This document shows positions 40,560 through 62,014 of a DNA stretch of 64,000 nucleotides, piece after piece (within the stretch, counting starts at the first letter, position 1; every line of letters starts with the position of its first letter). Location of the stretch: assembly GCA_030154045.1 (NCBI GenBank), contig JASKKU010000001.1:1025-65024 (forward strand), read 5' to 3'. This stretch comes from Candidatus Woesearchaeota archaeon. Lineage in GTDB: Archaea > Nanobdellota > Nanobdellia > Woesearchaeales > JASKKU01. Under the pieces are notes generated by a model, which had not been told where the DNA came from, ran no database searches, and was given only the letters and a program-made list of their open reading frames with translations. The position numbers and the translations under genes are program-made.

Positions 40560-41357
40560 ATGAAAAGTTTCAAGAAAATTAAGCCTTTTAAGTTAGTCCT
40601 TTCATCATTCTTGATTTTATTGATCGGATTTTTAATCTGGACATCTTTGAATCATAATTTGAATTTTAAAAGGGAAAATATTGTAACCTTTGTACCAGTT
40701 ATTTCTAAATATATTTCAACTGCAAGCACATCTTACAAAAACCTTTCGTGCAAGGATTTCATAAACTTAAGCAATAAAAAGCTCATTAAAGAACATGCGT
40801 ACAATCGAACAGTGAAAGATTCAAAAACAGGTTCACTTTATAAGAACTACATTTTAACTAAAGTTCAAAAAGAGTATTTCAACGCCACCCCTTTTACAGT
40901 TTATACTTCTACACAATATGAGTATTTAAACAACAAAACAATATTTTGTGGAATTAAAAAGAAATATGTAATTAATAGCTCTGATAGAGAATCTTTAAAG
41001 AGATTATATCAGCTTTTCTTAAATAACTTCTCAAAGAAATTTGAACCTATTGAAAAGTTTCAATGTGAAAATTCAGATATTGAATTTATCCTTGGAAAAA
41101 GAGGAGAAATTTATGGGATTTTAGGCGTTTTTACAATAGATCCTGATGTGAAGGTATCTTATAACATAAATGATCCTAACGCGAGAATAGTTACTGCGAG
41201 CGAATGGTTCAAAGGAGAATTTGATGAGTATGTTCTTTTTACTGAATTTAAGGATATCTCGCCCTTGGATAGGTTCAGGGTTACACTAGAATACATCTTA
41301 GACCATGTTTGTTACCCCAAAGAACGGCAAAAGTTTTTTTATTCAAAGATAATTTAA
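40560..41357 (+). CDS. N-terminally anchored membrane/secreted hypothetical protein
   Basis: TM LVLSSFLILLIGFLIW; convergent with, and 4 nt overlapping, the stop of HXS-repeat gene 1. Confidence 0.3.
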   Translation: MKSFKKIKPFKLVLSSFLILLIGFLIWTSLNHNLNFKRENIVTFVPVISKYISTASTSYKNLSCKDFINLSNKKLIKEHAYNRTVKDSKTGSLYKNYILTKVQKEYFNATPFTVYTSTQYEYLNNKTIFCGIKKKYVINSSDRESLKRLYQLFLNNFSKKFEPIEKFQCENSDIEFILGKRGEIYGILGVFTIDPDVKVSYNINDPNARIVTASEWFKGEFDEYVLFTEFKDISPLDRFRVTLEYILDHVCYPKERQKFFYSKII

Positions 41358-41983
41358 TTAACACAACAAATAGGATAACTTGGATTAGAACAATCTTTTG
41401 CACCTACAGAAGTACCACCATAGCCACGACATATTGATACTGATTCAACGCACGCACCATTTTCTGACAAACAATTTGCGTGAGTACTATGGCTAGCATG
41501 ACTAGAATGACTACCATGACTTGAGTGACTGCCGTGACTTGAGTGACTGCCATGACTGCCGTGACTTGAGTGACTGCCATGACTGCCGTGACTTGAGTGA
41601 CTGCCATGACTACCATGAGTTGTATGACTAGCATGAGTAGCATGAGCGATATGACTTGAATGACTGCCGTGAGTTGCATGACTACTGTGACTTGAGTGAG
41701 TGCCGTGAGTGCCATGAGTGGCGTGACTGCTGTGACTACCATGACTACCATGAGTACCATGAGTAGCATGGCTGCTGTGACTCGCATGAGTGCCATGAGT
41801 ACCATGGGTAGCATGATGTGCGTGTTTTGCCGTAGCTGAATTAACTAAAACAGGGGCATTAAAAAAATTAAAGAACGCAGCTGCTGATAGAAAAACACCC
41901 GTACTTACCAAAGAATGCTTATTTGTCAAACCGTCTTCACTTTTAATAAAATACCTTATCCTTTTTTTAAATTTAGGAAACAT
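41354..41983 (-). CDS. His-Xaa-Ser/Thr tripeptide-repeat protein 1: conserved signal/leader-like N-terminus, 40 consecutive H-x-x repeats, C-terminal 6-Cys domain
   Basis: aa 54-173 are strictly periodic HAT/HGT/HGS/HSS... tripeptides; N-terminus MFPKFKKRIRYFIKSEDGLTNKHSL plus a hydrophobic stretch ending VNSATA; C-terminus CLSENGACVESVSICRGYGGTSVGAKDCSNPSYPICCVN. Confidence 0.8.
   Translation of the reverse strand: MFPKFKKRIRYFIKSEDGLTNKHSLVSTGVFLSAAAFFNFFNAPVLVNSATAKHAHHATHGTHGTHASHSSHATHGTHGSHGSHSSHATHGTHGTHSSHSSHATHGSHSSHIAHATHASHTTHGSHGSHSSHGSHGSHSSHGSHGSHSSHGSHSSHGSHSSHASHSTHANCLSENGACVESVSICRGYGGTSVGAKDCSNPSYPICCVN
41465..41824. repeat. tandem 9/27-bp DNA repeats encoding the HxS/T tripeptide array of gene 1
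   Basis: Near-perfect 27-mer gtgacttgagtgactgccatgactgcc repeated 3x around 41527-41610; the antisense ORF 41404..41814 in the track is an artefact of this repeat. Confidence 0.85.
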
Positions 41984-41985
41984 TT

Positions 41986-42420
41986 TTAGGTTATATTGGG
42001 CAGAGATGAACAGTGAGTGGCATGATTGCTGTGACTCGCATGGGTAGCGTGAGTGCCATGGGTAGCATGAGTACTATGACTACCATGACTGCCATGAGTA
42101 GCATGAGTAGCGTGGCTGCTGTGGCTTGAGTGAGTACCGTGAGTAGCATGACTGCTGTGGCTACCGTGAGCAAGATGGCTGGCATGACTAGAATGACTGC
42201 CGTGAGTTTGATGAGAAAAATGACTAGAATGACTAGAATGACTAGAATGACTACTATGACTACTATGACTACCATGCGCCACTGCTAATTTTGAAGTTAT
42301 AATAGAACTTACAGCAAAAGAAGTAAAGAATACTCCAGCACTAATTAAAGAATGCTTATTACTCAACCCTTCTTCACTTTTTATGAAATACATTATCCTC
42401 TTTTTAAACTTTGGAAACAT
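41986..42420 (-). CDS. His-Xaa-Ser/Thr tripeptide-repeat protein 2 (paralog): same conserved N-terminus, 30 repeats, short SLPNIT tail
   Basis: N-terminus MFPKFKKRIMYFIKSEEGLSNKHSL is nearly identical to gene 1 at both protein and DNA level; aa 49-138 are HGS/HSS/HAT... tripeptides; 2-nt spacing to gene 1 and 9 nt to the upstream radical-SAM gene. Confidence 0.8.
   Translation of the reverse strand: MFPKFKKRIMYFIKSEEGLSNKHSLISAGVFFTSFAVSSIITSKLAVAHGSHSSHSSHSSHSSHSSHFSHQTHGSHSSHASHLAHGSHSSHATHGTHSSHSSHATHATHGSHGSHSTHATHGTHATHASHSNHATHCSSLPNIT
42007..42276. repeat. tandem 9-bp-unit DNA repeats encoding the tripeptide array of gene 2
   Basis: catgac/tagtcat-type 9-mers repeated; the antisense ORF 41991..42275 is an artefact. 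Confidence 0.8.
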
Positions 42421-42428
42421 GCAAACAC

Positions 42429-43931
42429 CTATTTTACAGGCTTAAGTTCATCATCACCAAAAATCTTAAGATATTCTCTATGCACGCCTTCACAAATATC
42501 AAAATACTTACATTCTCTACATTTTAAAGTTTTTGCTTTTAAATTATTCTTGCGAGTTGTGTTATACTCCTTATCCAATCCATCAGGATTGGCCATAAAT
42601 CTTTTTTCAGCCATATGTAATTCAACCACATGATTTTCATAACCCTGCATATAACACAAAGGAATTGCTTCAACATTTAACATATAATTATTCTCAATTG
42701 CTAAATCCAGAGCTTGATGAACATATGGAACAACATCTCTAATTCTTGGAATTAAAAGGTCAACATGTTTCAACGCATTACCTTCTGGACTAATAAACAT
42801 AAATTCAGAAAACATTCTCGGTAAATCTTTGTTTAAATTAATAAGGAACCTTACAATATCTGTAAGATGCTTATAATTAAGCTTGTTAATAACAGTAATT
42901 GTAGTATAAAGCACCTCAGGATACTTTTTCGCGTTTTCAAAAGCTTTCATTAATTGCTTGTAGTTGCCTTTAACGCTGGAAAGAGTATCTACAATCTTTT
43001 CATCAACATCGTCAAATGAAAAAGCTATATGATTCGCTCCGGATTCAACAAGTTTATCAAAAAAAGGTTGATAAGACAGCATGCGACCATTTGTAATAAC
43101 CTGCACTTCATAATAACCCATATCTCTAGCTGCCCTCGTTATGAAAAAGATATCCTTTCTTATCGTTGGCTCGCCACCTGTAAAGCTTACTTTCATTGCT
43201 CCAGCCTTCCTTCCGATAAACAAATCATTTAATATATCTTTTGTTGATTTTAATTTCTCTCCAAGATGACCTACGCAACAATACAAACAATTGTTGTTGC
43301 ATAAATAACCAGTTCTTATATCTATCCTAGGCATCTCTTTTCCAGAATTAGGAATCTTCTTCAAATCATAATACTTCTTATAATAAATGTAAAACCCTTT
43401 ACAAAATTTCTTTAGTTCACAACCATTGCATTTTTCTAAGTAAATGTGTTCTTTACCAGGATCATTATCAGAATCAAATTGTCCCTCCCTATTAATGAAC
43501 TTCTGATCAAATTCGTAGTTTCTCGCTTTTAAATCTGAGACATACTTAAAGAATTTCTTATCAATAAAACAGAGAGGAACCCCATCAACTCTAACCTCAA
43601 AACCCTTAGAATCACAAAACTCTAAAGTCTTATTCAAAACGTCTTGAAAAAGTTCAAGAGGAGTAGCTAACGGAACAACCTCATCAATATTTTGTGAGAA
43701 GCGAACAAGATTTGTTATCTGTAAATAAAAGTTATCAGATATTGAAAAAACTCTTCTAGCAACATCAAACAGTTCAGAATAATTCAAACTGTTCACAACA
43801 AAAACAACCCCGGTTTTAATTTTGGTCTTAGCGAGAGCCTCCAAAGCATCAAACTTCTTCTCTAACAATTCAACAGAGGATTTTGATAAAAACGAAAACA
43901 GGAACTTATCCCGGGTAGGAACATGAACCAA
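42429..43931 (-). CDS. two-module radical-SAM protein: N-terminal degenerate half-domain fused to a complete radical-SAM/twitch-like module
   Basis: Module 1 has PLCFID and CNGCELKKFCKG but no CxxxCxxC. Module 2 has CNNNCLYCC, GGEPT, IPLCYMQGY, CRECKYFDICEG and the tail LKIFGDDELKPVK. Confidence 0.8.
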   Translation of the reverse strand: MVHVPTRDKFLFSFLSKSSVELLEKKFDALEALAKTKIKTGVVFVVNSLNYSELFDVARRVFSISDNFYLQITNLVRFSQNIDEVVPLATPLELFQDVLNKTLEFCDSKGFEVRVDGVPLCFIDKKFFKYVSDLKARNYEFDQKFINREGQFDSDNDPGKEHIYLEKCNGCELKKFCKGFYIYYKKYYDLKKIPNSGKEMPRIDIRTGYLCNNNCLYCCVGHLGEKLKSTKDILNDLFIGRKAGAMKVSFTGGEPTIRKDIFFITRAARDMGYYEVQVITNGRMLSYQPFFDKLVESGANHIAFSFDDVDEKIVDTLSSVKGNYKQLMKAFENAKKYPEVLYTTITVINKLNYKHLTDIVRFLINLNKDLPRMFSEFMFISPEGNALKHVDLLIPRIRDVVPYVHQALDLAIENNYMLNVEAIPLCYMQGYENHVVELHMAEKRFMANPDGLDKEYNTTRKNNLKAKTLKCRECKYFDICEGVHREYLKIFGDDELKPVK

Positions 43932-44212
43932 AAGAGAGTCTAAGCCTGCAGATTCCAGTTTTTTCGCAACCTCTTCCGTAATTAAAGTGCCGTTTGTTTG
44001 AAGATGAACCTTAGCTTTTTTCTTGGCTTCTTTAATAACTTCAAAGATATCTGGCCTAAGCAGAGGTTCTCCCCCTGTAATTATAATCTGTTCAACTGAA
44101 TCGAAAGAATTTATTTTTTCAACTAAGTCTTCAAAAGAAGGTTCTCTTAACCCCCTCTTACGAGTACAATAAATACAATTTTGGTTGCAATCACTCGTTA
44201 CCTGTAATAAAC

Positions 44213-45232
44213 CTATTTTAATTCTCTCACCTCTGAATAAACTTCAAGATATTGTTTCCAAAAACCAGGGCATTTGTTCTTAAAAGGACAAACTTTGCAT
44301 TTTTTAACCCTTTCCCTAAACTGATTTAAGGTATAAAGCATATTCTTCTCAGGCTTTGAAAGATAGCATAAGGGAATGTTCTTTGTAAAAACCTTGTTCT
44401 GCTTATCAAACTCAAAACACTTATAAAAGTACTCCTTTAAATCTTCAAACTTTGGTGCAAGTATAGAATATCTTAATTGAGCATCACCGCCAGGCTCAAC
44501 ATAACTTAACTGAATCTCATCCACAAGATTATAAAAAAGTTTTACCATCTCAAAGATTTCTTCAAAATTCTGTTTTAAGATCACAAAGTTTATTTTAAGA
44601 ATTAAATCATCGTATTTTAAATCGTAGAGGTTCTTTAAACCTTGTACGGCTTGTTTAAAACTCCGAGGAGTTCGAGTAATTGCATCATGAGTTCTTTCAT
44701 TAGAACCAAGAATAGTAAAAGCGATCATCAAAGGCAACTTCAATTCAACAAGCCTTTTAGCAAACTCTTTGTAAGCAAACATACGACCGTTTGTTGGGAA
44801 GAAGATAGGAAAGTTGTACTTTTTAAGATGTTCAAGAATTTGAAAAATATCTCTACGCAAAGTAGGCTCTGCACCGTGTAAAACTATTAGTTTTTCTTTT
44901 CCAGTTAACAAAGAATCAAAGCTTGAAATAATCTCTTCAAAACTCGGGTCATCAACTTTGTTCCTAGATGATTCAAAACACATAATGCAATTATTATTGC
45001 ATTTTTTTGTTATAAAGAACTTCTTTATACCTGAAAGATTCAAATTAATTGCGCCAGGTTCACAAACATTAACGCACTTCATACAGCCTAAACAAATGTC
45101 TGCATCAGGAGCAAACACCTTGCCGTTTTCAAATTTAAACAGTTGTTGTGGGCAGACATCAATACATTTTAAACATGAATTACACTTTTTTTCGTCCACT
45201 TCAATCCGTGAAAGAGAATTTATTGCTTTCAT
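44213..45232 (-). CDS. 2x[4Fe-4S] ferredoxin domain fused to a radical-SAM/twitch-like enzyme
   Basis: N-terminal CNSCLKCIDVCP and CLGCMKCVNVCEP; radical-SAM CNNNCIMC, GAEPT, IPLCYLS, C-terminal CKVCPFKNKCPGFW. Confidence 0.8.
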   Translation of the reverse strand: MKAINSLSRIEVDEKKCNSCLKCIDVCPQQLFKFENGKVFAPDADICLGCMKCVNVCEPGAINLNLSGIKKFFITKKCNNNCIMCFESSRNKVDDPSFEEIISSFDSLLTGKEKLIVLHGAEPTLRRDIFQILEHLKKYNFPIFFPTNGRMFAYKEFAKRLVELKLPLMIAFTILGSNERTHDAITRTPRSFKQAVQGLKNLYDLKYDDLILKINFVILKQNFEEIFEMVKLFYNLVDEIQLSYVEPGGDAQLRYSILAPKFEDLKEYFYKCFEFDKQNKVFTKNIPLCYLSKPEKNMLYTLNQFRERVKKCKVCPFKNKCPGFWKQYLEVYSEVRELK

Positions 45233-46098
45233 TTTTTAACATCTTTAACAGGTTTAAAGTCTGAATAATTTTTGAATATCAAAAGATTTTGTTTATAGTA
45301 ACCATTACAATTCTGCTTTAAAACACAGGAATTGCATTCTGACAACGGGAAAACATACCTATCATCATGAATAAAGTCTTCTCCAATAACGTGCTTTCTA
45401 AATTCATCTTCAAAAATACACGGGGGTATATTAAAAACAAAAACACGATCATCAACTAAAGCATCTTCTATATGGGGTTTAATTTGTGAGAGAGAAACAT
45501 AAATCAGATCTTTATTATTAAGACTTCTATTCAAGTAGAGAGGATAATCTAAATAAACATTTTTCGTGGGAAAAAAATTCCTAAGAAACAATACTGTTTC
45601 CTTGAGTTGTTTATAATTTTGCTTAAGAATAACAATCATAAAATAAATATTCAAATCAGCTTCTTTTATAAATTCTAAAGCCTTAACAACTTGATAAAAA
45701 CTACCTTTAACCTTTGTGATTTCATCAAACGTTTCAGGATCTTTTGAATGAAAAGTTGTTCTGATTATATCAATATGTTCTTTGACTTTTTCAAAAAACG
45801 GCTTAACCGAAAGCATTCTGATATTTGACTGCAAACTAATTCGTGTATTCGGATAATTTCTTCGTAAAAATTTCAGGAAATCCAAGAAATAAGGCACTAT
45901 TGTTGGTTCTCCACCGGTTATTTGTATCTCCACAGCAGATTTTGGAATTTGTTTTAAAACCTCTTTTTTTACAAAGGAATATTCAAAAAAAGGTTCATAA
46001 TTTGTTTCAGTATGACAATAAACGCAATGATTATTGCATTTTGTTGTTAAGATAATTGCAAACTTGTTTCCAATAGACTTATGGATCTCAAAAGGCAT
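45229..46098 (-). CDS. radical-SAM/twitch-like enzyme (paralog)
   Basis: CNNHCVYC, GGEPT, IPPCIFED, C-terminal CNSCVLKQNCNGYY; 4-nt overlap with the downstream gene. Confidence 0.8.
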   Translation of the reverse strand: MPFEIHKSIGNKFAIILTTKCNNHCVYCHTETNYEPFFEYSFVKKEVLKQIPKSAVEIQITGGEPTIVPYFLDFLKFLRRNYPNTRISLQSNIRMLSVKPFFEKVKEHIDIIRTTFHSKDPETFDEITKVKGSFYQVVKALEFIKEADLNIYFMIVILKQNYKQLKETVLFLRNFFPTKNVYLDYPLYLNRSLNNKDLIYVSLSQIKPHIEDALVDDRVFVFNIPPCIFEDEFRKHVIGEDFIHDDRYVFPLSECNSCVLKQNCNGYYKQNLLIFKNYSDFKPVKDVKK

Positions 46099-46219
46099 GC
46101 TTTTAATAAAAGAAAGTTGTTTTTATATATCTTATTATTTTTGTGAAATCACTAATTTAACATCAAAGCATTAAAATAAAAAAAGCTTATAAAAACCTAA
46201 GTGTTATCTAATAGCTAGA

Positions 46220-46783
46220 GTGAACAAACTTTTATTTCAACTAATCTTGTATTTTATAATTTACTTATGTGGATCTTTTCCATCAGCTTATGTTGTAACA
46301 AAAATTTTTGCAAAAAAAGACATTCTAAAAATTGGTTCTGGTAATGTCGGGGCGCGAAATGTTTACGAGAATGTTAGTAAAAAATTAGGAATTATCACCT
46401 TTGCCTTAGACTTCAGCAAAGCAGTTGTAGCTTTTATTATATACTCAAAATACAATCTGTTTTTCACCTTGTCTCTATTAATGCTGGTCTTGGGACATAA
46501 TTTCTCGATCTATTTGAAATTTAAAGGAGGCAAAGGACTCGCGAGTACACTTACGTTCTTATTACTAAAAAATCCACTTCTCGCTATTTTTTCTATAATA
46601 ATCTATCTCATCACAAACAAAACTATCAAAAATATGGCTCTAAGCGTAATGTTGACAATTGCTCTATTATTAATTTTAACCAACATTTTTATTGAAAGAG
46701 ATATATTTATAAGCCTACTCCTTTGGATGGCTCTAACAATAAAATGGCTCCCGAACAAGAGGAACTTAGCAAACAAGAACTAA
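46220..46783 (+). CDS. plsY: PlsY-family acyl-phosphate:glycerol-3-phosphate acyltransferase
   Basis: YLCGSFPSA, GSGNVGARNV and LGHNFSIYLKFKGGKGLAS match the PlsY signatures YLxGSIxSA, GSGNPGATNV, LGHxxPxFxxFKGGKGVAT. Confidence 0.75.
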   Translation: MNKLLFQLILYFIIYLCGSFPSAYVVTKIFAKKDILKIGSGNVGARNVYENVSKKLGIITFALDFSKAVVAFIIYSKYNLFFTLSLLMLVLGHNFSIYLKFKGGKGLASTLTFLLLKNPLLAIFSIIIYLITNKTIKNMALSVMLTIALLLILTNIFIERDIFISLLLWMALTIKWLPNKRNLANKN

Positions 46784-47925
46784 TTAATAAGATCAAAGCA
46801 ATTATACCTGAATTCAAAGAGTATGTTAACTTAATAAATAGTATTAATGTATTTCCAATAGCTGACAAAGATACAGGCACGAACATTTATCTCACTCTCA
46901 AAAAATTTCTAGAATTAAATCGCTTTGAAGGTTTCGGAAATTCAGGCAATATTCTTGAGATCTTTGGGAACTCTCTCTTAAACAATCTTGGAGAAAAATT
47001 TACAATAAAACAGTTAACATCCGCAATTAAATCAGCTATATCTGAAGTTGAAAAATCTATTTTAAACCTTAAAGAGGGAACAATCTATACTGCTATGAAA
47101 AGACTATACGCTTCTTTAATTCAAAACAAAAACTTAAACGAAATAATCATAGGCTTATATCAACAAGTATTAGAAAGTAAAGAATATATGAAAGATTACA
47201 CTAACCAAGATGTTGTTGATTCTGGTGCTTTAGGATTTCTTATTTTTCTATGGTTGTTTAACAACAAAAAACCAGAGATAAACTTTAAAGATTTACAAAA
47301 ACCAATTGACAAAAAAGATTTCGAAGTTTATTGTATAAACATAACTTGTACTGATTATGAAGAAGAAAAGATAAAGACTCTTGATTCGGTAATTATTCAC
47401 AAGACACATAATGAGTATAAAATTCACTTTCATTCTCCCGATCTAAAATCAGCTCTTGAATTTAATAATCCAAAAATATTAAAAATAACTTTGCCAGAGA
47501 GTAATCAAAAAAAGACAAAAATATGTTATTTTTGTGAAAATGAAGAGGAAAAAGAGTTCTTTAGTAATTTGGGCTTAGAAACCGTAAGTTCAATTGAAGA
47601 AATAATTCTAAAAACAAACCCTTTACAAACCTTATATATAATCCCTGAAAGAAAAAAAGAGATTTTAGACTTGATCAATTTAGATGCAATAATTATTCAA
47701 AAAAGTGAAGAAGTATTAGCCTTATTAGAGGTTATCAGTTTAAAAACAGAATTTGACAAAGATGAGATAAATAACAAATTAAAAAAATATGCTTTAGTTG
47801 AAAATCCAAGTGAAGAACATGAAGTTATTTTCAAAATAAGTCGAAAAGTTAAAGAGGATTCTGTTTATTTCCCTTTCTTACATTGCAAAGAAAAGTTTTT
47901 GGTCAAAAAGAAAGATGTCTCATAG
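46723..47925 (+). CDS. DAK2-domain protein (fatty-acid kinase FakA-like / DhaL-like)
   Basis: INVFPIADKDTGTNIYLTL and FGNSGNILEIFGNS match the DAK2 signatures NVYPVPDGDTGTNM and RGNSGVILSQ; the start may be the second Met (MAPEQ, ~46744). Confidence 0.6.
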   Translation: MDGSNNKMAPEQEELSKQELINKIKAIIPEFKEYVNLINSINVFPIADKDTGTNIYLTLKKFLELNRFEGFGNSGNILEIFGNSLLNNLGEKFTIKQLTSAIKSAISEVEKSILNLKEGTIYTAMKRLYASLIQNKNLNEIIIGLYQQVLESKEYMKDYTNQDVVDSGALGFLIFLWLFNNKKPEINFKDLQKPIDKKDFEVYCINITCTDYEEEKIKTLDSVIIHKTHNEYKIHFHSPDLKSALEFNNPKILKITLPESNQKKTKICYFCENEEEKEFFSNLGLETVSSIEEIILKTNPLQTLYIIPERKKEILDLINLDAIIIQKSEEVLALLEVISLKTEFDKDEINNKLKKYALVENPSEEHEVIFKISRKVKEDSVYFPFLHCKEKFLVKKKDVS

Positions 47926-48988
47926 ATTTAAAAAATAAATAAAGAATAAAAAACAAGAAAGTAAAGATTAAAAAAGATTTTACATATTTAAGAATATAAG
48001 ACACCAGAGAAACATCTTCAAAAGCCTTAGAAAAAATATAAGCCTTAGAAAAATTTCCACCAGGATACTGAGAATATATCCTTTCGGCATATATATAGAA
48101 AAGTTGCCTTTTGGAAAACAGATCACTAAAAAAAATTTTAGAGATCTTTATTAAAGGCAAGATTCTGAAATCTTTAGAATAAATATAAAGCCAGCGAATA
48201 TTTAATTTAGCTTTTTCATAACAGTTATCTTTAAGTTGTTTGGGTACTTTAATCCCTAAAAGATTTTCTAAACGATAAATCTTAAAAGAGCAATCATAAA
48301 AATCATCATGAACCAAAAAGAATTCTAAATGTGAAGAAATATTTTTAAGAAGTGAATCTTTAAAGCTACAGTTAATCAAACTACAATAATAGGCAAAGTG
48401 TACATTTGAAACGAAATCAAAATTATGGGGTGTAGAAATATTCTTTTCAAAAACTTCAAAAAGACCGTATGTTTTATTTAAATTAAAAGAATCAATAAAA
48501 TTTGCATTAAAATTAAAGTCAGAAAAATTGTGTTTGAGATCCTGAAAAATAAAAGTATATGTTAAAGCTGTGTCATCTAAATCAGCGCCATATAATGAAT
48601 AAAGAGGAGTATAAGTGAAAGCAATTGGAATATTATCTTGCTTTAGATTGATTCTTAATTTTAAATAATTAAAAAGCGCTTCTTTAAAAGACTGAGGCAT
48701 AATGTTTTTAAATTCTCCGATAGAGCAGATTAAAGGAAAGAAAATATTCTCATCGAGATATTTATATGAATCCGTAAACTCTGATCTAGAAAGATAAGCA
48801 TTCTCAAGTTTTGAAATTGATAATGTTGATTGCTTTGAAGCATACGTTCTCAAAAAGAATCCATCAATAACCTCAGATTTAAACTCTTGATAAAAATAAA
48901 AAAACTGAACTAAGAAAAAAAGAGTGAGAACTAAAAAGAAAACGAACAAAAAACAAGAGCTCCTTTCTAATAACTTTAGTTTATTCAT
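47903..48988 (-). CDS. N-terminally anchored membrane protein of unknown function
   Basis: TM FLFVFFLVLTLFFLVQFFYF then an Asn/Phe/Tyr-rich domain. Confidence 0.3.
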   Translation of the reverse strand: MNKLKLLERSSCFLFVFFLVLTLFFLVQFFYFYQEFKSEVIDGFFLRTYASKQSTLSISKLENAYLSRSEFTDSYKYLDENIFFPLICSIGEFKNIMPQSFKEALFNYLKLRINLKQDNIPIAFTYTPLYSLYGADLDDTALTYTFIFQDLKHNFSDFNFNANFIDSFNLNKTYGLFEVFEKNISTPHNFDFVSNVHFAYYCSLINCSFKDSLLKNISSHLEFFLVHDDFYDCSFKIYRLENLLGIKVPKQLKDNCYEKAKLNIRWLYIYSKDFRILPLIKISKIFFSDLFSKRQLFYIYAERIYSQYPGGNFSKAYIFSKAFEDVSLVSYILKYVKSFLIFTFLFFILYLFFKSMRHLSF

Positions 48989-49844
48989 CTTTATGAACTA
49001 CAATCCCAAAAACATCGGGTCCAAAATGAGATGTAGGCACAAGATTTGTCTTAAAATGATATAAGAAATTTGACTTTGAACCAAAATACGCAAAAATCTG
49101 CTGGTTCAAATTGTTTGCAAGACTCTCACTTTCCACAGAACCCGACAGAAGACCATATGTAAAAGATGAATCTAAGACAAAATTTTTAATATGCTTCTTT
49201 AATTTAAGATAAACGTTTCTTAAACCTACTGCTTTATCAACAACTACAGGTACACCATTTTCTTGAGAACCTATCGGATAAACATTTAACAGTTTTCCAA
49301 ATAATCCTTGAACAGGTTTTAGCCTTCCACCTCTAACCAAGTATGAAAGATCATATACAACATAGTAAAATTTCAAATTTTTCTTTACTTTTAACAAAAA
49401 ATGGTTTATTTGATCAAAAGACCAAGAATTAAAATCTTGTTTTGATAAAAGCAAAGCTTGAATTCCTAACTCTGCAGATGTTGAACCAGAATCAAATAAT
49501 AATGATTTTGAAGATAGAAGATTATCAGATTCAATTAAAGTTTTACAAAGATTATAAATTCCGCTTATTTTCTGACTACTCGTTATAAATATAAACCTAT
49601 CAAATCCTTTTGAAATCACATCAAAAACAGTTTTTTTAACTTCATTTAATGTGGGTACCGAAGTCTTTGGAAAATCCTTTGAACTTTTTACTAAGGAGAT
49701 ATATTCTTCTCTAGTAATATTTTGATTAAGAACAAAGTCTCTGCCATCGATCATCGCATGAAACTTTATTAAGAAAATATCTCGTTTATTAGCATACTGC
49801 TCATCAATATCACTTGCGGAATCTACAAAAATTGCTGTTTTCAT
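48981..49844 (-). CDS. DegV-family fatty-acid-binding protein (FakB-like)
   Basis: MKTAIFVDSASD, PKTSVPTLNEV, SSQKISGIYN match DegV/FakB signatures (MKIAVMTDSTS, PTTSQPAIGE, SSGISGSY). Confidence 0.65.
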   Translation of the reverse strand: MKTAIFVDSASDIDEQYANKRDIFLIKFHAMIDGRDFVLNQNITREEYISLVKSSKDFPKTSVPTLNEVKKTVFDVISKGFDRFIFITSSQKISGIYNLCKTLIESDNLLSSKSLLFDSGSTSAELGIQALLLSKQDFNSWSFDQINHFLLKVKKNLKFYYVVYDLSYLVRGGRLKPVQGLFGKLLNVYPIGSQENGVPVVVDKAVGLRNVYLKLKKHIKNFVLDSSFTYGLLSGSVESESLANNLNQQIFAYFGSKSNFLYHFKTNLVPTSHFGPDVFGIVVHKDE

Positions 49845-49881
49845 AATAAAAACAAAGTAATATTTAAAAAGTATTTAATCT

Positions 49882-51105
49882 TTGTGGTTTCCAATGAAAG
49901 TAAAGACTCTTACATTGTTAATAATCTCAGTATATAGTGTAGCACTACTGAGTCAAACTTTGGAACTGTTACCATTTACAATCTTTTTTCTTTCACTCAT
50001 TGCAATAAAAAGAAAAGCCAACCTCGATAAGCTTATAGTGTCTCTAACATTACCTCTAATATATTTCTTCCCATTCAATCTCTGGGTTGATATGAAATTA
50101 AGTTGGTATCTAATTCCTGTACTATTAAGCGCATTAATTTTAGTCCTATTCTTTAAAATTTCTGAGAAAATAATTTATATTTTTAAAAATTATAAGAAGG
50201 ATCCTCTGTTTCTATCAATAATCCTTTCCTTGACTTGGGTTGGCCTTTTATATTTAACTTATAAGATTTTAGGAACCGAACCAACTTGGATGTTTTTCTC
50301 ATATCGATGGTTTAAATCAAATTTAGCGCAGCTAAATATATACTCTTTTGAATCAATCGTCTTTTTCACAATATCCTATTTCTCAATTTCGTTAACCGAA
50401 AAAACAAATTCTGAAAAAAAGAGATGGGTACACATAAGTCTCTCTACTATCTTAATAATCATACTTTTACTCAGTTTTCTCAAACCAATAAAAATAGAGC
50501 ATCCGCAAAAAGCATTGTTGATAAACTTAAATCTAGATTTTTCTTATACACATAGAGTTGAAAACCAAAAAGAGATCTTGTATAAATATATCGAAGCAAT
50601 CAAAAATTCTACTTCAAAAGTTGATTTCATAATCTTACCAGAGTATGTAATCGTCACAGATTGGCGAAAAGAACCAAAAATCATTGAGTTATTCAAAAAC
50701 ACCTCTTCTGAATTAAACACACCCATTCTCGTAGGTTCAAAAGAAGATATAAACACAACGCATTTTTATAATGTGGCTGTGATCTTTGACAAGAATAAAA
50801 GTTATTCTGTAAGAGATGTATTCCCTATGAGTTTGTCTAAAAACACTGTTAAAGGTAACAGGCTTCCGACAATTGATTTAAAAAATAACTCTTATGCCAT
50901 TTTACTTTGTTTTTCAACAACACAGTCTAGATTTTGGAAAGAAATTAAAGAAAACCCTAAAATAGACGGAGTGTTGATTTTAGCAAATGAACAAGCATTA
51001 CATTGGTTCCTAAAAAAAGACGTATATTATCTAATCAGATATTTTGAAATATATTCTAAAAAGCCAATTTATAAAGCAGTAAACAACGGGATCACTTATC
51101 CATAA
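49882..51105 (+). CDS. polytopic membrane protein with a C-terminal CN-hydrolase-like domain (apolipoprotein N-acyltransferase Lnt-like?)
   Basis: About 6 TM helices, then IILPEY (Glu), KNKSYSVRDVFP (Lys), AILLCFS (Cys) in Lnt-like order. Confidence 0.35.
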   Translation: MWFPMKVKTLTLLIISVYSVALLSQTLELLPFTIFFLSLIAIKRKANLDKLIVSLTLPLIYFFPFNLWVDMKLSWYLIPVLLSALILVLFFKISEKIIYIFKNYKKDPLFLSIILSLTWVGLLYLTYKILGTEPTWMFFSYRWFKSNLAQLNIYSFESIVFFTISYFSISLTEKTNSEKKRWVHISLSTILIIILLLSFLKPIKIEHPQKALLINLNLDFSYTHRVENQKEILYKYIEAIKNSTSKVDFIILPEYVIVTDWRKEPKIIELFKNTSSELNTPILVGSKEDINTTHFYNVAVIFDKNKSYSVRDVFPMSLSKNTVKGNRLPTIDLKNNSYAILLCFSTTQSRFWKEIKENPKIDGVLILANEQALHWFLKKDVYYLIRYFEIYSKKPIYKAVNNGITYP

Positions 51106-51610
51106 AAAGTTCGTTAAAAATTCTTAAAAACTGTTCAAAATCAATTTGTGATTCCTTTTTAAAGTTACCTTTTTTGGCGTCATCAAAGAATTCTTTGTTA
51201 GAGATTATTTTTCTTAAATCTTGAGAAACTTTGAAACAAGTATTCCCATAAACCAAAATGTTAACACATTTCAAATCCTGAAGAATTTTTGTGTATGGGA
51301 ACGGATTACAAGTTAAACCCACAAACAAAGAGAAATTTTCTTTTTGTTCATTAATTGTTTTTTCTAGATGCTCATAAGAAGTTATCTGAAAAAATTTTAT
51401 TCTTTGTTCTTGCAAAAACCTTGTGATCTTTCCATAAACACAAGTCTTTCTTGTACACGTAGAGTCACAAAAATTCTTTTTCCTATACTTGCAATCCAAT
51501 GGCTTTAAACAGTAAGGCAGTAAGAAAACAATTTTCGGTCTCGACGTTTTTTTAACTTCTTGTAAAGAGCAATCCTTCAATTGAAAACCATCAAAAGGCA
51601 CCCATATCAT
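51092..51610 (-). CDS. small Cys-rich protein (8 Cys), unknown function
   Basis: Cys-rich segment LPYCLKPLDCKYRKKNFCDSTCTRKTCVYG. Confidence 0.3.
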   Translation of the reverse strand: MIWVPFDGFQLKDCSLQEVKKTSRPKIVFLLPYCLKPLDCKYRKKNFCDSTCTRKTCVYGKITRFLQEQRIKFFQITSYEHLEKTINEQKENFSLFVGLTCNPFPYTKILQDLKCVNILVYGNTCFKVSQDLRKIISNKEFFDDAKKGNFKKESQIDFEQFLRIFNELFMDK

Positions 51611-51613
51611 GTT

Positions 51614-52525
51614 TTATCTCCTATTTTGAATAACAGGCTCATGCTCTCCAAATCCATAAAACTGAACATAACTCTTTAACAAATGAGGACATTCATTATA
51701 ATAAATACATCTCTTGCATTCCGGTCCATTATCCATAAAAGCCCCACCAACACAACCCGACTTAACAACAAATTGTCTAAATCTTGGAGAAAAAAGAGCT
51801 TTTGGTAACAAATGAATTTGTATTTTTTCTGAAGAAAATCCTGCATTAATCAAGTTGGCTATTGCTTTTTCTATTTCAGGAGCAATCTCTAAATGAGAAA
51901 CTAACATTCTGTCTTTATTCTGCAAAGCCATCCCAATAACATCCATTCCTATAAAAGTAAACGAAGAAATTCTATACAAATTCTCTTTACGAATCATATC
52001 GCCATAAAACTTTAAAGTTTTATAGTTCATTTTGCTAACTACCGTTCTAATACCTACATCAAACCCCCTAGAGAGCAGATTTTTTAACCCAATCAAACTT
52101 TTATCCCAAGAGCCTTTAACTTGTGTAATTTGGTCATGGACAATTGAAAAAGGACTATAAAAACCAAATTCAATATGAAAATCAAATCCTCTTTCTTTCA
52201 AAAATAGAAACTTATCACAGAACGCTTGATAATAAAACATCATTCCATTTGAATTGATATGTATTCTTAAGTCTCTCTTCTTTTTTAAAACATGGAAAAG
52301 AATATCAAACAAAAAAGGACTGATTGTCGGCTCACCACCAATAAAAGAAACTATACGAATATCATCGCCCCAATTTTCATCAATAAACTTAAGAACCTCA
52401 TCTTTTGTAAGATTATAAGCCCTAAAATTATCATCGTTAGGGCAGTTTAAACACATCTGATTACATTTAGTTGTGGCATTAACCACTAATTCTCCAGGAT
52501 TCCTAAATCCATAAATTGAACCCAT
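51614..52525 (-). CDS. radical-SAM/twitch-like enzyme (paralog)
   Basis: CNQMCLNC, GGEPT, C-terminal CKRCIYYNECPH. Confidence 0.8.
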   Translation of the reverse strand: MGSIYGFRNPGELVVNATTKCNQMCLNCPNDDNFRAYNLTKDEVLKFIDENWGDDIRIVSFIGGEPTISPFLFDILFHVLKKKRDLRIHINSNGMMFYYQAFCDKFLFLKERGFDFHIEFGFYSPFSIVHDQITQVKGSWDKSLIGLKNLLSRGFDVGIRTVVSKMNYKTLKFYGDMIRKENLYRISSFTFIGMDVIGMALQNKDRMLVSHLEIAPEIEKAIANLINAGFSSEKIQIHLLPKALFSPRFRQFVVKSGCVGGAFMDNGPECKRCIYYNECPHLLKSYVQFYGFGEHEPVIQNRR

Positions 52526-54448: not shown

Positions 54449-55368
54449 AAAACTTTATTCCTTTTTTTAGGTTCTTCAAATATTGGATAGAGTTCTTCTA
54501 ACCCAAACATCTCAGCATACTCTTTCCAAACACCAGGACAAACATTATTAAGAACACACAACTCGCAATCTTTTGATTTTTTCTTCAGTTCGGAAAACTG
54601 TTTTTTGAGAAGGTTATATTTGCCTGTTTGAGAATTGATATATTCTTGCTGATGATATCTTTCAGTATTTAACCGAATATACTCTGAAGAATATTCCTTA
54701 AATTCAAGCATATAACATAAAGGCACACCTTCAACCTCATAGATAATGTCCTCTTGTTTATCCAGAAAAGTTAAAACTTTATACAAATGGTATTGAACTT
54801 TATAAAGTCGTGGAACCAATTCAGGATGTTGTTGTGTTCTACCGTTTGGCCTGATAAATCCAAAATAAAATTTCACCTTACCAACATTTGATAGAATAAA
54901 TTTTACGAAATTAAGCAAATCTTTATAATTCAACTCGTTGATAACATGAGAAATTGCAACAAAAAGTCTTGCATCAACTAATCGTTTAAGATTTTTGATA
55001 ATAGTATCAAAATTATCAACGCCTGAGAGATATTTATGAACTTCTCGTTTGTGAGAATGCAATGAAGCCATAATCTGTGTAACATTCGTTGAAATCAAAG
55101 TTTCAAAGATCTCATCAGTTATGTTTGAAACATTTGTTTGTAGTTCAATATTCTTTCCTAAAGAATGAGCGAATTTAACTAATTCAATAAAATCTTTTCT
55201 TATCGTTGGTTCGCCACCTGTAAATACAACTGTGTGTGCATCTGTTTCTCTGATGATTTTTTTAACATGTTCAGTTGAGAGCGTTGCCTCGTTAGTGCCA
55301 TAAACAGTACAAAATTTGCACAGGTGGTTGCATTCGTGTCCTAAGCGAATATTCAACACTGAAGTCAT
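54430..55368 (-). CDS. radical-SAM/twitch-like enzyme (paralog)
   Basis: CNHLCKFC, GGEPT, VPLCYML, CELCVLNNVCPGVW, tail FGLEELYP. Confidence 0.8.
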   Translation of the reverse strand: MTSVLNIRLGHECNHLCKFCTVYGTNEATLSTEHVKKIIRETDAHTVVFTGGEPTIRKDFIELVKFAHSLGKNIELQTNVSNITDEIFETLISTNVTQIMASLHSHKREVHKYLSGVDNFDTIIKNLKRLVDARLFVAISHVINELNYKDLLNFVKFILSNVGKVKFYFGFIRPNGRTQQHPELVPRLYKVQYHLYKVLTFLDKQEDIIYEVEGVPLCYMLEFKEYSSEYIRLNTERYHQQEYINSQTGKYNLLKKQFSELKKKSKDCELCVLNNVCPGVWKEYAEMFGLEELYPIFEEPKKRNKVFWWNSK

Positions 55369-57045: not shown

Positions 57046-57075
57046 TTTTAATACCTAAAAAATGAGAAAATAAGC

Positions 57076-61615: not shown

Positions 61616-61637
61616 CAATTCAAACAAACACAACTAA

Positions 61638-61901: not shown

Positions 61902-62014
61902 ACTTTTTAAATTATTAAACTAAAAATAGAAACAAATTCTAGGACATATTTAAAACCAGAGATTTATAGAATGAACTGAAAATAGAAAAATGGTGCAAAA
62001 TAAGATAAACAAAT

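What the first reader, a model, noticed from the sequence alone, without database searches (positions are those of the whole stretch)
41354..42420. Paralogous substrate pair: near-identical ~48-aa leader/signal region, hypervariable repeat cores, one with a 6-Cys C-terminal module
Both proteins start MFPKFKKRI(R/M)YFIKSE(D/E)GL(T/S)NKHSL, followed by a hydrophobic stretch. Their DNA is also clearly homologous, indicating a duplication. The cores differ in repeat number and composition. The long basic/conserved region before the hydrophobic segment is atypical for a plain Sec signal. It fits a RiPP-style leader recognised by maturases, possibly also serving as a signal anchor. Gene 1 ends in CLSENGACVESVSICRGYGGTSVGAKDCSNPSYPICCVN, a knottin-like or disulfide/metal-binding module. 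Gene 2 ends in SLPNIT. His-rich secreted arrays also suggest metal (Ni/Zn/Cu) sequestration.
Basis: seen in the sequence. Interest (0 to 1): 0.85.

Follow-up and report, generated by a model that had tools for sequence, protein, structure and literature searches.

The report
Archaeal His-Xaa-Ser repeat precursor pair
These two small genes encode histidine-serine repeat proteins that are the likely substrates of a large radical-SAM "His-Xaa-Ser" (Hxs) maturation gene cluster in a Woesearchaeota archaeon: a new, unusually expanded member of a family that is already catalogued, and whose bacterial version was shown in 2026 to block phage DNA entry.

Summary
Two adjacent minus-strand genes (41986-42420, 144 aa; 41354-41983, 209 aa) share a 31-residue N-terminus (26/31 identical). 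A hydrophobic helix and an AxA motif follow, then strictly period-3 His-x-Ser/Thr arrays of 30 and 39 triplets.

They are not a new class. Both belong to the HxsA3/HxsA4 "His-Xaa-Ser repeat protein" families of NCBIfam. The same leader occurs on more than 100 small His- or Cys-rich proteins. In 37 of 47 testable species-representative genome loci, mostly DPANN archaea with a few CPR and other bacteria, it lies near HxsB, usually in the order HxsD-HxsB-leader gene.

The window also encodes a true HxsB, HxsD and nine HxsC-like radical-SAM domains. In a close relative all of these form one contiguous array, which a 5.5-kb insertion splits here.

The most likely mechanism has three steps: leader-guided radical-SAM modification of the HxS triplets in the cytoplasm, then Sec export, then display of a His-rich modified polymer outside the cell. 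The final function is unproven and could be an antiviral barrier, as for E. coli HXS, or metal binding.

The 6-Cys tail is specific to this lineage. It has no homologue and no confident fold.

Verdict: new member of a known kind, moderate interest.

The parts
41986..42420 (-). HxsA-short: 144-aa precursor. Leader aa 1-31 (42328-42420), hydrophobic helix ending AVA48 (42277-42351), 30 H-x-S/T triplets (42007-42276), conserved C-terminus HCSSLPNIT (41989-42015).
   Evidence: ORF. NCBIfam HxsA3 NF038309 51.8 bits over residues 1-81 (cut-off 65) and HxsA4 41.3 bits (cut-off 55). Triplet count. Orthologues on L061-L063 end HCSSLP[ND]IT.
41354..41983 (-). HxsA-long: 209-aa precursor. Leader aa 1-31 (41891-41983), hydrophobic helix ending ATA52 (41828-41920), 39 H-x-S/T triplets (41474-41824), lineage-specific 6-Cys tail (41357-41473).
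   Evidence: ORF. NCBIfam HxsA4 NF038313 73.3 bits, above the cut-off of 55. AF2 model has helices 3-15 and 22-41 and is otherwise disordered. The tail has no homologue.
42429..44222 (-). Tandem double HxsC-like radical-SAM protein (~597 aa) immediately upstream of HxsA-short, with a probable ATT/ATA start.
   Evidence: A CxxxCxxC motif lies in frame upstream of the listed TTG. There are two rSAM domains. It is 80% identical to a 600-aa ORF in L061, and the SD-ATT junction is conserved.
44213..45232 (-). 2x[4Fe-4S] ferredoxin domain fused to an HxsC-like radical-SAM domain (339 aa).
   Evidence: Pfam Fer4 plus Radical_SAM. Best NCBIfam family is HxsC TIGR03977, 112 bits. 73% identical to its orthologues in L061 and L065.
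45229..46098 (-). HxsC-like radical-SAM protein (289 aa), first gene of the five-gene unit that ends with the two HxsA genes.
   Evidence: HxsC TIGR03977 115 bits is the best family. Orthologues are present in L061 and L065.
46099..51613 (.). Insertion that splits the Hxs cluster and is not part of the system: PlsY, DAK2/FakA-like, DegV, DUF116 and two unknown membrane proteins.
   Evidence: This stretch is absent from the otherwise collinear cluster of the relative L065/L066.
51614..52525 (-). HxsC-like radical-SAM protein (303 aa).
   Evidence: HxsC TIGR03977 121.7 bits is the best family. 80% identical to its L065 orthologue.
52568..54448 (-). Tandem double HxsC-like radical-SAM protein (626 aa).
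   Evidence: HxsC TIGR03977 229.6 bits over two stretches. 73% identical to its L065 orthologue.
54430..55368 (-). HxsC-like radical-SAM protein (312 aa).
   Evidence: HxsC4 NF038332 81.6 bits is the best family. It aligns with the other eight domains.
55393..57045 (-). DUF362 plus 2x[4Fe-4S] ferredoxin protein, a candidate electron donor for the radical-SAM enzymes (inference).
   Evidence: Pfam DUF362 150 bits plus Fer4. Conserved at this position in L065 and L067.
57076..58125 (-). Membrane protein of unknown family (349 aa), conserved inside the cluster.
   Evidence: No Pfam or NCBIfam hit. Positional orthologues of 376 and 348 aa occur in L065 and L067.
58173..59138 (-). HxsC-like radical-SAM protein (321 aa) directly after HxsB.
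   Evidence: HxsC4 158.5 bits and HxsC 101 bits. 20% identity, E 3e-10, collinear with the annotated HxsC of Aeromonas. 90% identical to its L065 orthologue.
59139..60671 (-). HxsB: SPASM radical-SAM maturase with an N-terminal RRE-like domain.
   Evidence: TIGR03978 414.9 bits, above the cut-off of 370. AF2 pLDDT 93.4, with strands at residues 20-49 followed by three helices at 50-91. Best PDB folds are CteB 5why/5wgg.
60700..60948 (-). Small HxsD-like ORF (82 aa) between HxsD and HxsB.
   Evidence: Read from the intergenic translation. 77% identical to an 83-aa gene at the same position in L065.
60951..61496 (-). HxsD-like protein (181 aa).
   Evidence: TIGR03976 48.0 bits against a cut-off of 50. 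The L065 orthologue carries a precomputed Pfam PF27806 HxsD hit. phmmer finds homologues upstream of HxsB in about 40 related loci.

Best explanation
The two genes encode HxsA3/HxsA4-class precursor proteins of an expanded His-Xaa-Ser (Hxs) radical-SAM maturation system in a Candidatus Woesearchaeota (DPANN) archaeon.

Shown here:
- The proteins carry the leader that defines this class.
- That leader is co-conserved with HxsD-HxsB in relatives.
- The pair ends a tightly packed unit of HxsC-like radical-SAM genes.
- In a close relative that unit is contiguous with HxsD, HxsB, a further HxsC-like gene, a DUF362-ferredoxin gene and four more HxsC-like domains.

Inferred mechanism:
1. The basic ~30-residue leader helix is bound in the cytoplasm by the RRE-like N-terminal domain of HxsB and/or by HxsD.
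2. HxsB and the nine HxsC-like domains install radical-SAM modifications on the H-x-S/T triplets. The precedent is the +8 Da modification mapped to an HxS repeat of E. coli HxsA.
3. The hydrophobic helix and the AxA site then direct Sec export and probably cleavage. This releases or displays a 96-aa and a 157-aa His-rich, otherwise uncharged, modified polypeptide outside the cell.

The end function is not established. By analogy with E. coli HXS it may be an envelope-level barrier to incoming viral DNA. The arrays lack basic residues and switch charge with pH (+2 to +4 at pH 7, +22 to +30 at pH 5.5), so metal binding or pH-dependent binding is equally plausible.
For: - NCBIfam: the long gene scores 73.3 bits on HxsA4 (cut-off 55). 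The short gene scores 51.8 bits on HxsA3, aligned over residues 1-81.
- All 23 aligned family members hit HxsA3.
- An exhaustive HMMER search with the leader profile gave 22 hits. Twenty-one are 57-165-aa proteins with the same leader and a His- or Cys-rich core.
- Of 47 GTDB loci with at least 2 kb upstream, 37 hold an HxsB orthologue. In 24 of them the order is HxsD-HxsB-leader gene, directly adjacent on the same strand.
- The window holds HxsB at 414.9 bits (cut-off 370), HxsD at 48 bits (cut-off 50), and nine mutually alignable HxsC-like domains. All nine have intact CxxxCxxC and C-terminal CxxCx5C motifs.
- The relative L065/L066 has the whole set collinear and contiguous at 68-90% identity (34% for the unknown membrane protein). 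It lacks window 46099-51613.
- L061 shows rSAM - Fdx-rSAM - double rSAM - short - long in the same order.
- The genes are packed tightly: 8-nt and 2-nt spacers and 4-nt overlaps.
- The HxsB AlphaFold2 model has pLDDT 93.4 and an N-terminal beta/three-helix domain. Its best PDB matches are the leader-binding RiPP maturase CteB and then anSME.
- The precursor model has helices at 3-15 and 22-41. Kyte-Doolittle hydrophobicity over 19 residues is about 1.67. The motifs read AVA|H and ATA|K.
- Precedent for radical-SAM-dependent maturation and export of an HxS-repeat protein: PMC13128918.
Against: - No biochemical data exist for any HxsA3/A4-type protein.
- The HxsC-like domains all fall well below the curated HxsC and HxsC4 cut-offs.
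- The short gene is below both the HxsA3 and the HxsA4 cut-offs.
- The leader shows no similarity to the canonical HxsA N-terminus (E 13).
- The proteins lack the peptidoglycan-binding domain and the Arg-rich repeats that the E. coli DNA-binding model relies on.
- In this genome the pair lies 17 kb from HxsB/HxsD.
- The signal-peptide assignment rests on inspection, not on a trained predictor.
- No background rate of HxsC-like genes in DPANN genomes was measured.
- The L065 contig ends before the position where the HxsA pair would lie, so the complete contiguous cluster is tiled from two relatives rather than seen on one contig.
Confidence: 0.72

Rival explanations
1. Signal-anchor variant. 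The hydrophobic helix is not cleaved, and the proteins stay tethered in the membrane with the N-terminus inside. They display the modified His array on the cell surface, for example at the interface between the DPANN cell and its host.
For: AlphaFold2 predicts a confident 20-residue helix at 22-41 (pLDDT 86-88). Its hydrophobicity, about 1.67 over 19 residues, is at the transmembrane threshold. The long conserved N-terminal region is atypical for a plain Sec signal.
Against: A small-x-small (AxA-type) motif sits directly before the first His of the core, both in these two proteins and in most relatives read. E. coli HxsA is N-terminally processed.
Confidence: 0.2
2. Multi-core RiPP precursor. 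The array is modified and then cut into many small bioactive peptides, as in a secreted natural product, rather than acting as a polymer.
For: The repeat cores sit behind one shared leader, and the same leader is reused on very different cores, both Cys-rich and His-rich. That pattern is typical of RiPP families. A subtilase with a weak PatA/PatG-type hit lies 5 kb away.
Against: No protease or ABC exporter lies in the cluster, either in the window or in L065. The subtilase is separated from the pair by HerA-Mre11 and was not seen in related loci. The triplets have no recognisable flanking cleavage motifs. E. coli HxsA acts as a protein.
Confidence: 0.08
3. The proteins are unmodified secreted histidine-rich proteins that bind or buffer metals. 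Their adjacency to radical-SAM genes is incidental, and those genes act on something else, for example lipids.
For: The mature regions are 25-31% His with H-x-x-H spacing. The best PDB sequence match of the double rSAM is the tetraether lipid synthase GDGT-MAS 7tol. Lipid genes (PlsY, DegV, FakA-like) lie inside the cluster in this genome.
Against: In the relative L065 the lipid genes are absent from the cluster, so they are an insertion. NCBIfam ranks HxsC or HxsC4 first for every one of the nine domains, far ahead of Tes. The leader genes are linked to HxsD-HxsB across phyla.
Confidence: 0.07
4. The ORFs are non-coding low-complexity repeat DNA or an assembly artefact.
For: The DNA is a tandem repeat, and several frames are open across it.
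Against: The same frame, leader, C-terminal motif and gene order are conserved at 45-83% protein identity on six independent contigs from four sequencing projects. Only this frame matches the curated HxsA models.
Confidence: 0.01

Closest known systems
Canonical HxsABCD (HXS) system of Pseudomonadota. It was predicted by Haft & Basu in 2011 and shown to be an anti-phage system that blocks DNA entry (Li et al., Nat Commun 2026, PMC13128918).
   Same: Both have an HxS-repeat protein with an N-terminal export signal. Both have a true HxsB (TIGR03978 above cut-off), an HxsD-type small protein and HxsC-type radical-SAM enzymes with a C-terminal CxxC cluster motif. The gene order starts D-B-C and ends with A.
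   Different: Canonical HxsA has a short classical signal peptide, five or six Arg-rich repeats (HRSHRSHSSHRSH...) and a C-terminal peptidoglycan-binding domain. Here there is a 31-aa conserved leader, 30 and 39 uncharged triplets, and no such domain. Sequence similarity to Aeromonas HxsA is nil (E 13). There are nine HxsC-like domains instead of one, two substrates, about 14 genes instead of four, and an archaeal host. The published survey places 99.7% of systems in Pseudomonadota.
NCBIfam variant families HxsA3 (NF038309), HxsA4 (NF038313) and HxsC4 (NF038332).
   Same: The same leader and repeat architecture. The long gene passes the HxsA4 cut-off. All relatives found with the leader hit HxsA3. 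Public records already name relatives 'HxsA4' and, in Woesearchaeota, 'HxsB'.
   Different: The short gene and all HxsC-like genes are below the curated cut-offs. This sub-lineage has a distinct leader (MFPKFKKRI.YFIKSE.GL.NKHSL) and lacks the HTN.L..SYSG.TATGTH.HH motif that most HxsA3 proteins have before the array. Its arrays are at the top of the observed length range.
RRE-dependent SPASM radical-SAM RiPP systems such as SCIFF/CteB and SuiB.
   Same: HxsB's best solved relatives by sequence and by fold are CteB (5wgg/5why) and then anSME. HxsB has an N-terminal strand/three-helix domain where CteB has its leader-binding domain. The leader is conserved and the core is variable.
   Different: The substrates are 96-157-aa repeat polymers with an internal export signal rather than short peptides. 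The chemistry is unknown. The cluster holds no dedicated protease or exporter.
Shared-leader RiPP precursor families (Nif11/NHLP type). This comparison is from general knowledge, not tested here.
   Same: One conserved leader is attached to very different cores: HxS arrays, Cys-Gly tails, Cys-Thr repeats, Hint domains.
   Different: The leader sequences are unrelated. Here the leader is followed by a hydrophobic export segment.

Membership tests
Hxs (His-Xaa-Ser) radical-SAM system | Substrate protein with tandem His-Xaa-Ser repeats | tested here: met
   The two genes have 30 and 39 period-3 triplets, of which 28 and 36 are H-x-S/T.
Hxs (His-Xaa-Ser) radical-SAM system | HxsB SPASM radical-SAM maturase (TIGR03978, cut-off 370 bits) in the system | tested here: met
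   Window 59139-60671 scores 414.9 bits. It lies 17 kb from the pair here but is contiguous with the HxsC bank in L065.
Hxs (His-Xaa-Ser) radical-SAM system | HxsC radical-SAM maturase (TIGR03977, cut-off 267.9 bits) | tested here: not met
   HxsC or HxsC4 is the top family for all nine domains. Scores are 60-122 bits per single-domain protein and 229.6 bits for a two-domain protein. They are distant homologues only: 20% identity and E 3e-10 to Aeromonas HxsC.
Hxs (His-Xaa-Ser) radical-SAM system | HxsD small protein (TIGR03976, cut-off 50 bits) | tested here: inconclusive
   The window protein scores 48.0 bits. Its orthologue in L065 has a precomputed Pfam PF27806 HxsD hit.
Hxs (His-Xaa-Ser) radical-SAM system | Four-gene layout hxsD-hxsB-hxsC-hxsA | tested here: not met
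   The layout is D-D'-B-C-membrane protein-DUF362/Fdx-C-CC-C-[insertion]-C-FdxC-CC-A-A. The canonical layout was seen in Aeromonas.
Hxs (His-Xaa-Ser) radical-SAM system | [quoted passage not shown] | tested here: not met
   Neither protein has a Pfam PG_binding hit. The short core has no K or R at all.
Hxs (His-Xaa-Ser) radical-SAM system | [quoted passage not shown] | not testable with these tools
   This needs mass spectrometry and genetics. It is known only for E. coli (PMC13128918).
NCBIfam HxsA4 (NF038313) | Whole-protein score of at least 55 bits | tested here: met
   The long gene scores 73.3 bits, although its best stretch covers only the repeat. The short gene scores 41.3 bits and does not pass. 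The L062 orthologue of the long gene scores 68.6 bits, aligned from residue 2.
NCBIfam HxsA3 (NF038309) | Whole-protein score of at least 65 bits | tested here: not met
   The short gene scores 51.8 bits (aligned 1-81 of 81 positions) and the long gene 36.1 bits. All 23 members of the leader family hit the model, with a best E of 1e-16.
RiPP-type leader-core precursor | Conserved leader on variable cores, plus a maturase with a leader-recognition (RRE-like) domain | tested here: met
   Leader conservation across His-rich and Cys-rich cores is shown. The HxsB model has a strand/three-helix N-terminal domain, and CteB is the best PDB match. Actual binding was not tested.
Sec-type signal peptide | A basic n-region, a hydrophobic h-region and an AxA cleavage motif | tested here: inconclusive
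   The first 25 residues hold 6-7 K+R. The helix at 22-41 is followed by AVA48 or ATA52 directly before the core. No trained predictor was available, and the n-region is unusually long.
   The tail has no Pfam hit and no homologue in the related loci or collected proteins. AF2 gives pLDDT 41-53 with no secondary structure. Orthologues replace it with a ~340-aa domain.
Collagen-like repeat proteins | Gly at every third position, and Pfam Collagen at or above 27.2 bits | tested here: not met
   Pfam Collagen scores 20 bits. The invariant third residue is His, not Gly. The Scl/Lcl hits are period-3 artefacts.

The most novel reading that the evidence does not exclude
The DPANN/CPR type of Hxs system may be a distinct machine. 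In it a bank of up to nine specialised HxsC paralogues would iteratively cross-link or otherwise modify every one of 30-39 H-x-S/T triplets. The product would be a new kind of heavily modified poly-histidine surface polymer, for example a pH- or metal-switchable ladder. Episymbiotic archaea could use it as an antiviral or host-interface barrier. The chemistry and the role would go beyond the single +8 Da modification of the E. coli effector.
Probability: 0.15. Interest if true: 0.8.

Novelty: new member of a known kind. Interest (0 to 1): 0.5.

Why it matters
Only one Hxs system has been studied experimentally, in E. coli in 2026. Its radical-SAM chemistry, the +8 Da modification on an HxS repeat, is still unsolved. 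The published survey of HxsA places 99.7% of systems in Pseudomonadota.

This locus, and the more than 100 relatives recovered here, show a second and very different lineage of the same system. It is widespread in DPANN archaea and occurs in some CPR bacteria. It has its own leader, much longer uncharged arrays, multiple HxsC paralogues and swappable C-terminal modules.

A substrate with 30-39 candidate sites and nine candidate enzymes could be a richer handle on the unknown chemistry. If the function is antiviral, it would extend envelope-level blocking of DNA entry to archaea. As an annotation matter, it explains an entire ~20-kb stretch of radical-SAM genes in this genome.

Tried and rejected
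- The word-indexed homologue search with the 55-aa leader returned nothing. The exhaustive HMMER search replaced it. Its top hit, P0001, is a 1460-aa Cys-rich eukaryote-like repeat protein and is spurious.
- The 23-sequence alignment was too diverse for the locus finder. A 10-leader alignment worked.
- PADLOC 2023 has no model that hits the two proteins. The radical-SAM genes hit only the generic pVip models.
- No leader relatives were found in IMG/VR viral contigs.
- Searches for the 6-Cys tail in all related loci and collected proteins found nothing better than E 0.57.
- The neighbours unk265 and unk232, the S8 protease and the other flanking genes had no phmmer match in loci L001-L060. One weak 32%-identity match to unk232 was seen on L063. 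They are not treated as part of the system.
- The lipid-enzyme reading of the radical-SAM bank (Tes/GDGT-MAS similarity plus adjacent PlsY/DegV) was rejected, because the lipid genes are an insertion absent from L065.
- The collagen and Scl adhesin hits were rejected as period-3 artefacts.
- A by-eye comparison of the number of HxsC domains with array length across loci showed no obvious relation and was not pursued.
Full report
**1. Observation.**
The window carries two adjacent minus-strand ORFs at exactly the reported coordinates: 41986-42420 (144 aa, "short") and 41354-41983 (209 aa, "long").
- They align at 53% identity with E 8e-23. Their 5' DNA is clearly homologous.
- The N-termini are 26/31 identical. 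The hydrophobic segment after residue 31 has diverged and has a 5-residue indel. "Near-identical ~48 aa" therefore overstates the case; about 31 aa is correct.
- Each core is a strict period-3 array with His at every third residue: 39 triplets in the long gene and 30 in the short gene. Position 2 is mostly G, S or A. Position 3 is S or T in 36/39 and 28/30 triplets.
- Tandem Repeats Finder finds 9-, 27- and 45-nt units, including a 27-nt unit repeated four times at 91% identity. The arrays therefore grow by local duplication.
- The leader motif occurs nowhere else in the 64-kb window.
- Other-frame ORFs across the repeats are shadows of the repeat.

**2. Source organism.**
- The window contains an archaeal SRP RNA (137.7 bits) and an intron-containing tRNA. 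G+C is about 33%.
- Its HxsB protein is 100% identical over 91% of its length to a protein of a Candidatus Woesearchaeota MAG.
- A Logan contig from run SRR23823818 carries the same genes.

**3. What the two proteins are.**
- NCBIfam places them in the His-Xaa-Ser repeat protein families. The long gene scores 73.3 bits on HxsA4 (cut-off 55). The short gene scores 51.8 bits on HxsA3 (cut-off 65), aligned over residues 1-81, which includes the leader.
- An exhaustive HMMER search of 1.84 billion representative proteins with a two-sequence leader profile returned 22 hits. Twenty-one are small proteins of 57-165 aa. They share the leader pattern [FLI]PK[IL]KK+I..FL..EEG+ISK.SL...G, then a hydrophobic segment, then a His-rich, HxS-repeat or Cys-rich core. 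The remaining hit is spurious.
- All 23 aligned members hit the HxsA3 model. None hits the canonical HxsA model at E <= 0.01.
- A second search, with the long protein, brought the collected set to 139 proteins. Of these, 113 carry the leader. Arrays reach 30 triplets. C-terminal additions are diverse: aromatic ends, Cys-rich tails, Hint/intein, Peptidase_S74, PG_binding_1. One hit is already named "HxsA4".
- The leader is thus specific to this substrate class.

**4. Co-conservation with radical-SAM genes.**
- A scan of one genome per GTDB species found 58 loci with the leader. Most are in Woesearchaeota, Nanoarchaeota, Pacearchaeota and Aenigmatarchaeota. A few are in CPR bacteria and Desulfobacteraceae.
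- Using the window's own HxsB and HxsD as queries, 37 of the 47 loci with at least 2 kb upstream contain an HxsB orthologue (>= 250 bits). In 24 the order is HxsD-HxsB-leader gene, directly adjacent on one strand.
- 21 of 43 loci of at least 10 kb also hold between one and seven HxsC-like domains scoring at least 100 bits. I did not measure a background rate for that last figure.
- Some genomes have extra "orphan" leader genes away from the maturases.
- The second half of the refutation test therefore also fails to refute.

**5. The system in this window.**
Upstream of the pair, with 8-nt and 2-nt spacers and 4-nt overlaps, lie three radical-SAM genes:
- a 289-aa protein;
- a 339-aa protein with an N-terminal 2x[4Fe-4S] domain;
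- a tandem double protein. The ORF list truncates it to 500 aa, but its first CxxxCxxC lies in frame upstream of the listed TTG. The junction GAGGTGAGAGAATTAAAATAGG is conserved in a relative. This implies a Shine-Dalgarno sequence followed by an ATT or ATA start, and a ~597-aa product.

Further along the same strand are:
- a 303-aa, a 626-aa double and a 312-aa radical-SAM protein;
- a DUF362-ferredoxin protein;
- a conserved membrane protein;
- a 321-aa HxsC-like protein;
- a bona fide HxsB (TIGR03978, 414.9 bits, cut-off 370);
- a small HxsD-like ORF;
- HxsD (48 bits, cut-off 50).

The eight domains outside the 321-aa protein were aligned together and share CxxxCxxC, GGEPT, PxC and a C-terminal CxxCx5C. 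The 321-aa protein carries the same motifs and scored 216 bits against the profile built from that alignment. HxsC or HxsC4 is the top NCBIfam family for all nine, but always far below the curated cut-offs.

**6. One cluster, split here.**
- In a relative with 82% identical HxsB (ENA ERZ27248172; NCBI GCA_964386095.1) every gene from HxsD to the last double radical-SAM gene is collinear and contiguous. Identity is 68-90% (34% for the membrane protein). Window 46099-51613, which holds PlsY, a FakA-like protein, DegV, DUF116 and two unknowns, is absent there.
- A JGI contig (L061) covers the other end: rSAM, Fdx-rSAM, double rSAM (80% identity), short gene, long gene.
- Together these tile a cluster of about 14 genes that ends with the two precursors. 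The separation seen in the window is a secondary insertion.
- A more distant relative (66% identical HxsB) has only HxsD-HxsD'-HxsB-HxsC-membrane protein-DUF362 within 10 kb.

**7. The pair is old, and the Cys tail is not conserved.**
- The short type ends HCSSLP[ND]IT. The long type has ...NAPVLVNSATAKHAHH... before its array. Both recur as a pair on L061-L064 and L002, with differing repeat numbers: 23-30 triplets in the short-type genes and 33-39 in the long-type genes that are complete.
- In L061 and L062 the long paralogue continues into a ~340-aa domain that starts SCPFLAIV...NNLLPESE. That domain is also found in the CPR loci L049 and L053.
- In L062 the long gene is followed by a SPASM radical-SAM gene, then two unknown genes, then HerA-Mre11.
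- In the window the domain and that gene are missing. The long gene ends in the 38-residue 6-Cys tail, and unrelated genes on the opposite strand follow.
- The tail has no homologue in any locus or collected protein and no confident predicted structure (pLDDT 41-53).
- Cys-rich tails of unrelated sequence are common in the family. A role in disulfide or metal chemistry is therefore possible, but "knottin-like module" is not supported.

**8. Mechanism.**

Shown: family membership, linkage to HxsB/HxsD/HxsC-like genes, and operon-like packing.

Supported by modelling:
- HxsB folds with pLDDT 93.4. It has strands at residues 20-49 followed by three helices at 50-91, ahead of the radical-SAM core.
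- Its best solved relatives, by sequence and by fold, are the leader-binding RiPP maturase CteB (5wgg/5why) and then anSME.
- The alignment to CteB extends about 90 columns further than the alignment to anSME (about 470 against about 380).
- From my own knowledge, anSME lacks an N-terminal leader-binding domain. On that basis the extra aligned length fits an RRE-like leader-binding domain in HxsB.
- The precursor model has a basic helix at 3-15, a confident helix at 22-41, and is otherwise disordered.

Shown by sequence:
- There are 6-7 K+R in the first 25 residues.
- Hydrophobicity over 19 residues is about 1.67.
- AVA48 and ATA52 lie directly before the first His or Lys of the core. Comparable small-x-small motifs occur in the relatives.

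Inferred: cytoplasmic recognition of the leader, radical-SAM modification of the triplets, Sec export, and probably cleavage.

The precedent is E. coli HXS. There HxsB, HxsC and HxsD are all needed for N-terminal processing. A +8 Da modification maps to an HxS repeat, every repeat is essential, and the mature protein acts in the periplasm (PMC13128918).

**9. Function.**
- The E. coli model invokes electrostatic capture of incoming DNA by Arg-rich repeats anchored to peptidoglycan.
- An annotated canonical HxsA from Aeromonas reads HRSHRSHSSHRSHSSHRSH and has a PG-binding C-terminus. It shows no similarity to the short gene (E 13).
- The archaeal cores contain no Lys, Arg, Asp or Glu in the short gene. 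Their charge is +2 to +4 at pH 7 and +22 to +30 at pH 5.5.
- An antiviral envelope barrier remains possible. Metal binding or pH-switched binding fits the composition equally well.
- No leader relatives were found in viral contigs, and no defence models hit the proteins.
- I put about 0.3 on an antiviral role, about 0.3 on metal- or pH-dependent binding, and leave the rest open.

**10. Novelty and verdict.**
- The kind is known: Hxs systems, predicted in 2011 and characterised in 2026.
- The sub-type is catalogued in NCBIfam as HxsA3, HxsA4 and HxsC4.
- Woesearchaeota HxsB proteins are already named in public records.
- I found no paper in the searchable library on the archaeal/CPR type, its leader or its HxsC banks.
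- This locus is a new member of a known kind. Its unusual features are two substrates, 30-39 triplets, nine HxsC-like domains, a split cluster and a unique Cys tail.
- Interest is moderate (0.5).

Noticed in passing
window 44213-44222 (minus strand): The double radical-SAM gene has no ATG, GTG or TTG before its first CxxxCxxC motif. A GAGGTGA Shine-Dalgarno-like sequence followed by ATT/ATA overlaps the stop codon of the upstream gene. This junction is conserved base-for-base (apart from one base after the stop codon) in relative L061. That suggests a non-canonical start codon, which gene callers truncate to 479-500 aa.
   Followed up: partly
window 46099-51613: About 5.5 kb is inserted into the Hxs cluster. 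It encodes bacterial-type lipid genes in an archaeon (PlsY, a DAK2/FakA-like protein, DegV), plus DUF116 and two unknown membrane proteins. It is absent from the collinear cluster of relative L065/L066.
   Followed up: partly
window 60700-60948 (minus strand): An unlisted 82-aa ORF between HxsD and HxsB has an HxsD-like ...FFNYLLGL... motif. An 83-87-aa gene sits at the same position in L065 (77% identity) and in L067. It is possibly a second HxsD-type subunit.
   Followed up: partly
window 55393-58125 (minus strand): A DUF362 plus 2x[4Fe-4S] ferredoxin protein and a 349-aa membrane protein of no known family are conserved inside the cluster in relatives at both 82% and 66% HxsB identity. They may be the electron donor and an export or anchoring component.
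   Followed up: no
L061 3679-4656, L062 541-2019, L049, L053, L039: Orthologues of the long gene, and some CPR and Woesearchaeota HxsA3 proteins, carry a ~340-aa C-terminal domain (CPF[LV]..WNG / NN.LPESE...) with no Pfam or NCBIfam hit. Other family members end in Hint/intein-like domains, Peptidase_S74, PG_binding_1 or Cys-rich tails. The C-terminal effector module appears to be swappable.
   Followed up: partly
window 41989-42015 (minus strand): The C-terminus of the short gene, HCSSLPNIT, is conserved (HCSSLP[ND]IT) in three related contigs. It contains an N-x-T sequon and the only Cys of the mature protein. Its significance is unknown.
   Followed up: no
window 35055-36335: An S8 subtilase has weak similarity to mycosin and PatA/PatG-type maturation proteases and to a PADLOC 'subtilase' model. 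It lies 5 kb from the pair, beyond HerA-Mre11. No relative of it was found in related loci L001-L060.
   Followed up: partly
window 36800-39648: A HerA helicase and an Mre11-like phosphoesterase form a pair that is syntenic with the Hxs pair in L062. No Rad50 or NurA was noticed next to them.
   Followed up: no
window 31490-31609 and 61634-61903: A 120-nt tRNA match implies an intron-containing tRNA, which ARAGORN missed. An archaeal SRP RNA lies directly beside HxsD.
   Followed up: no
L062 2023-3270: In a relative, the long HxsA gene is followed by an extra 415-aa RiPP-maturase-like radical-SAM gene (best hits CcpM/PapB, with HxsB at 71 bits; only the radical-SAM core scored in Pfam). This gene is missing from the window.
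   Followed up: partly
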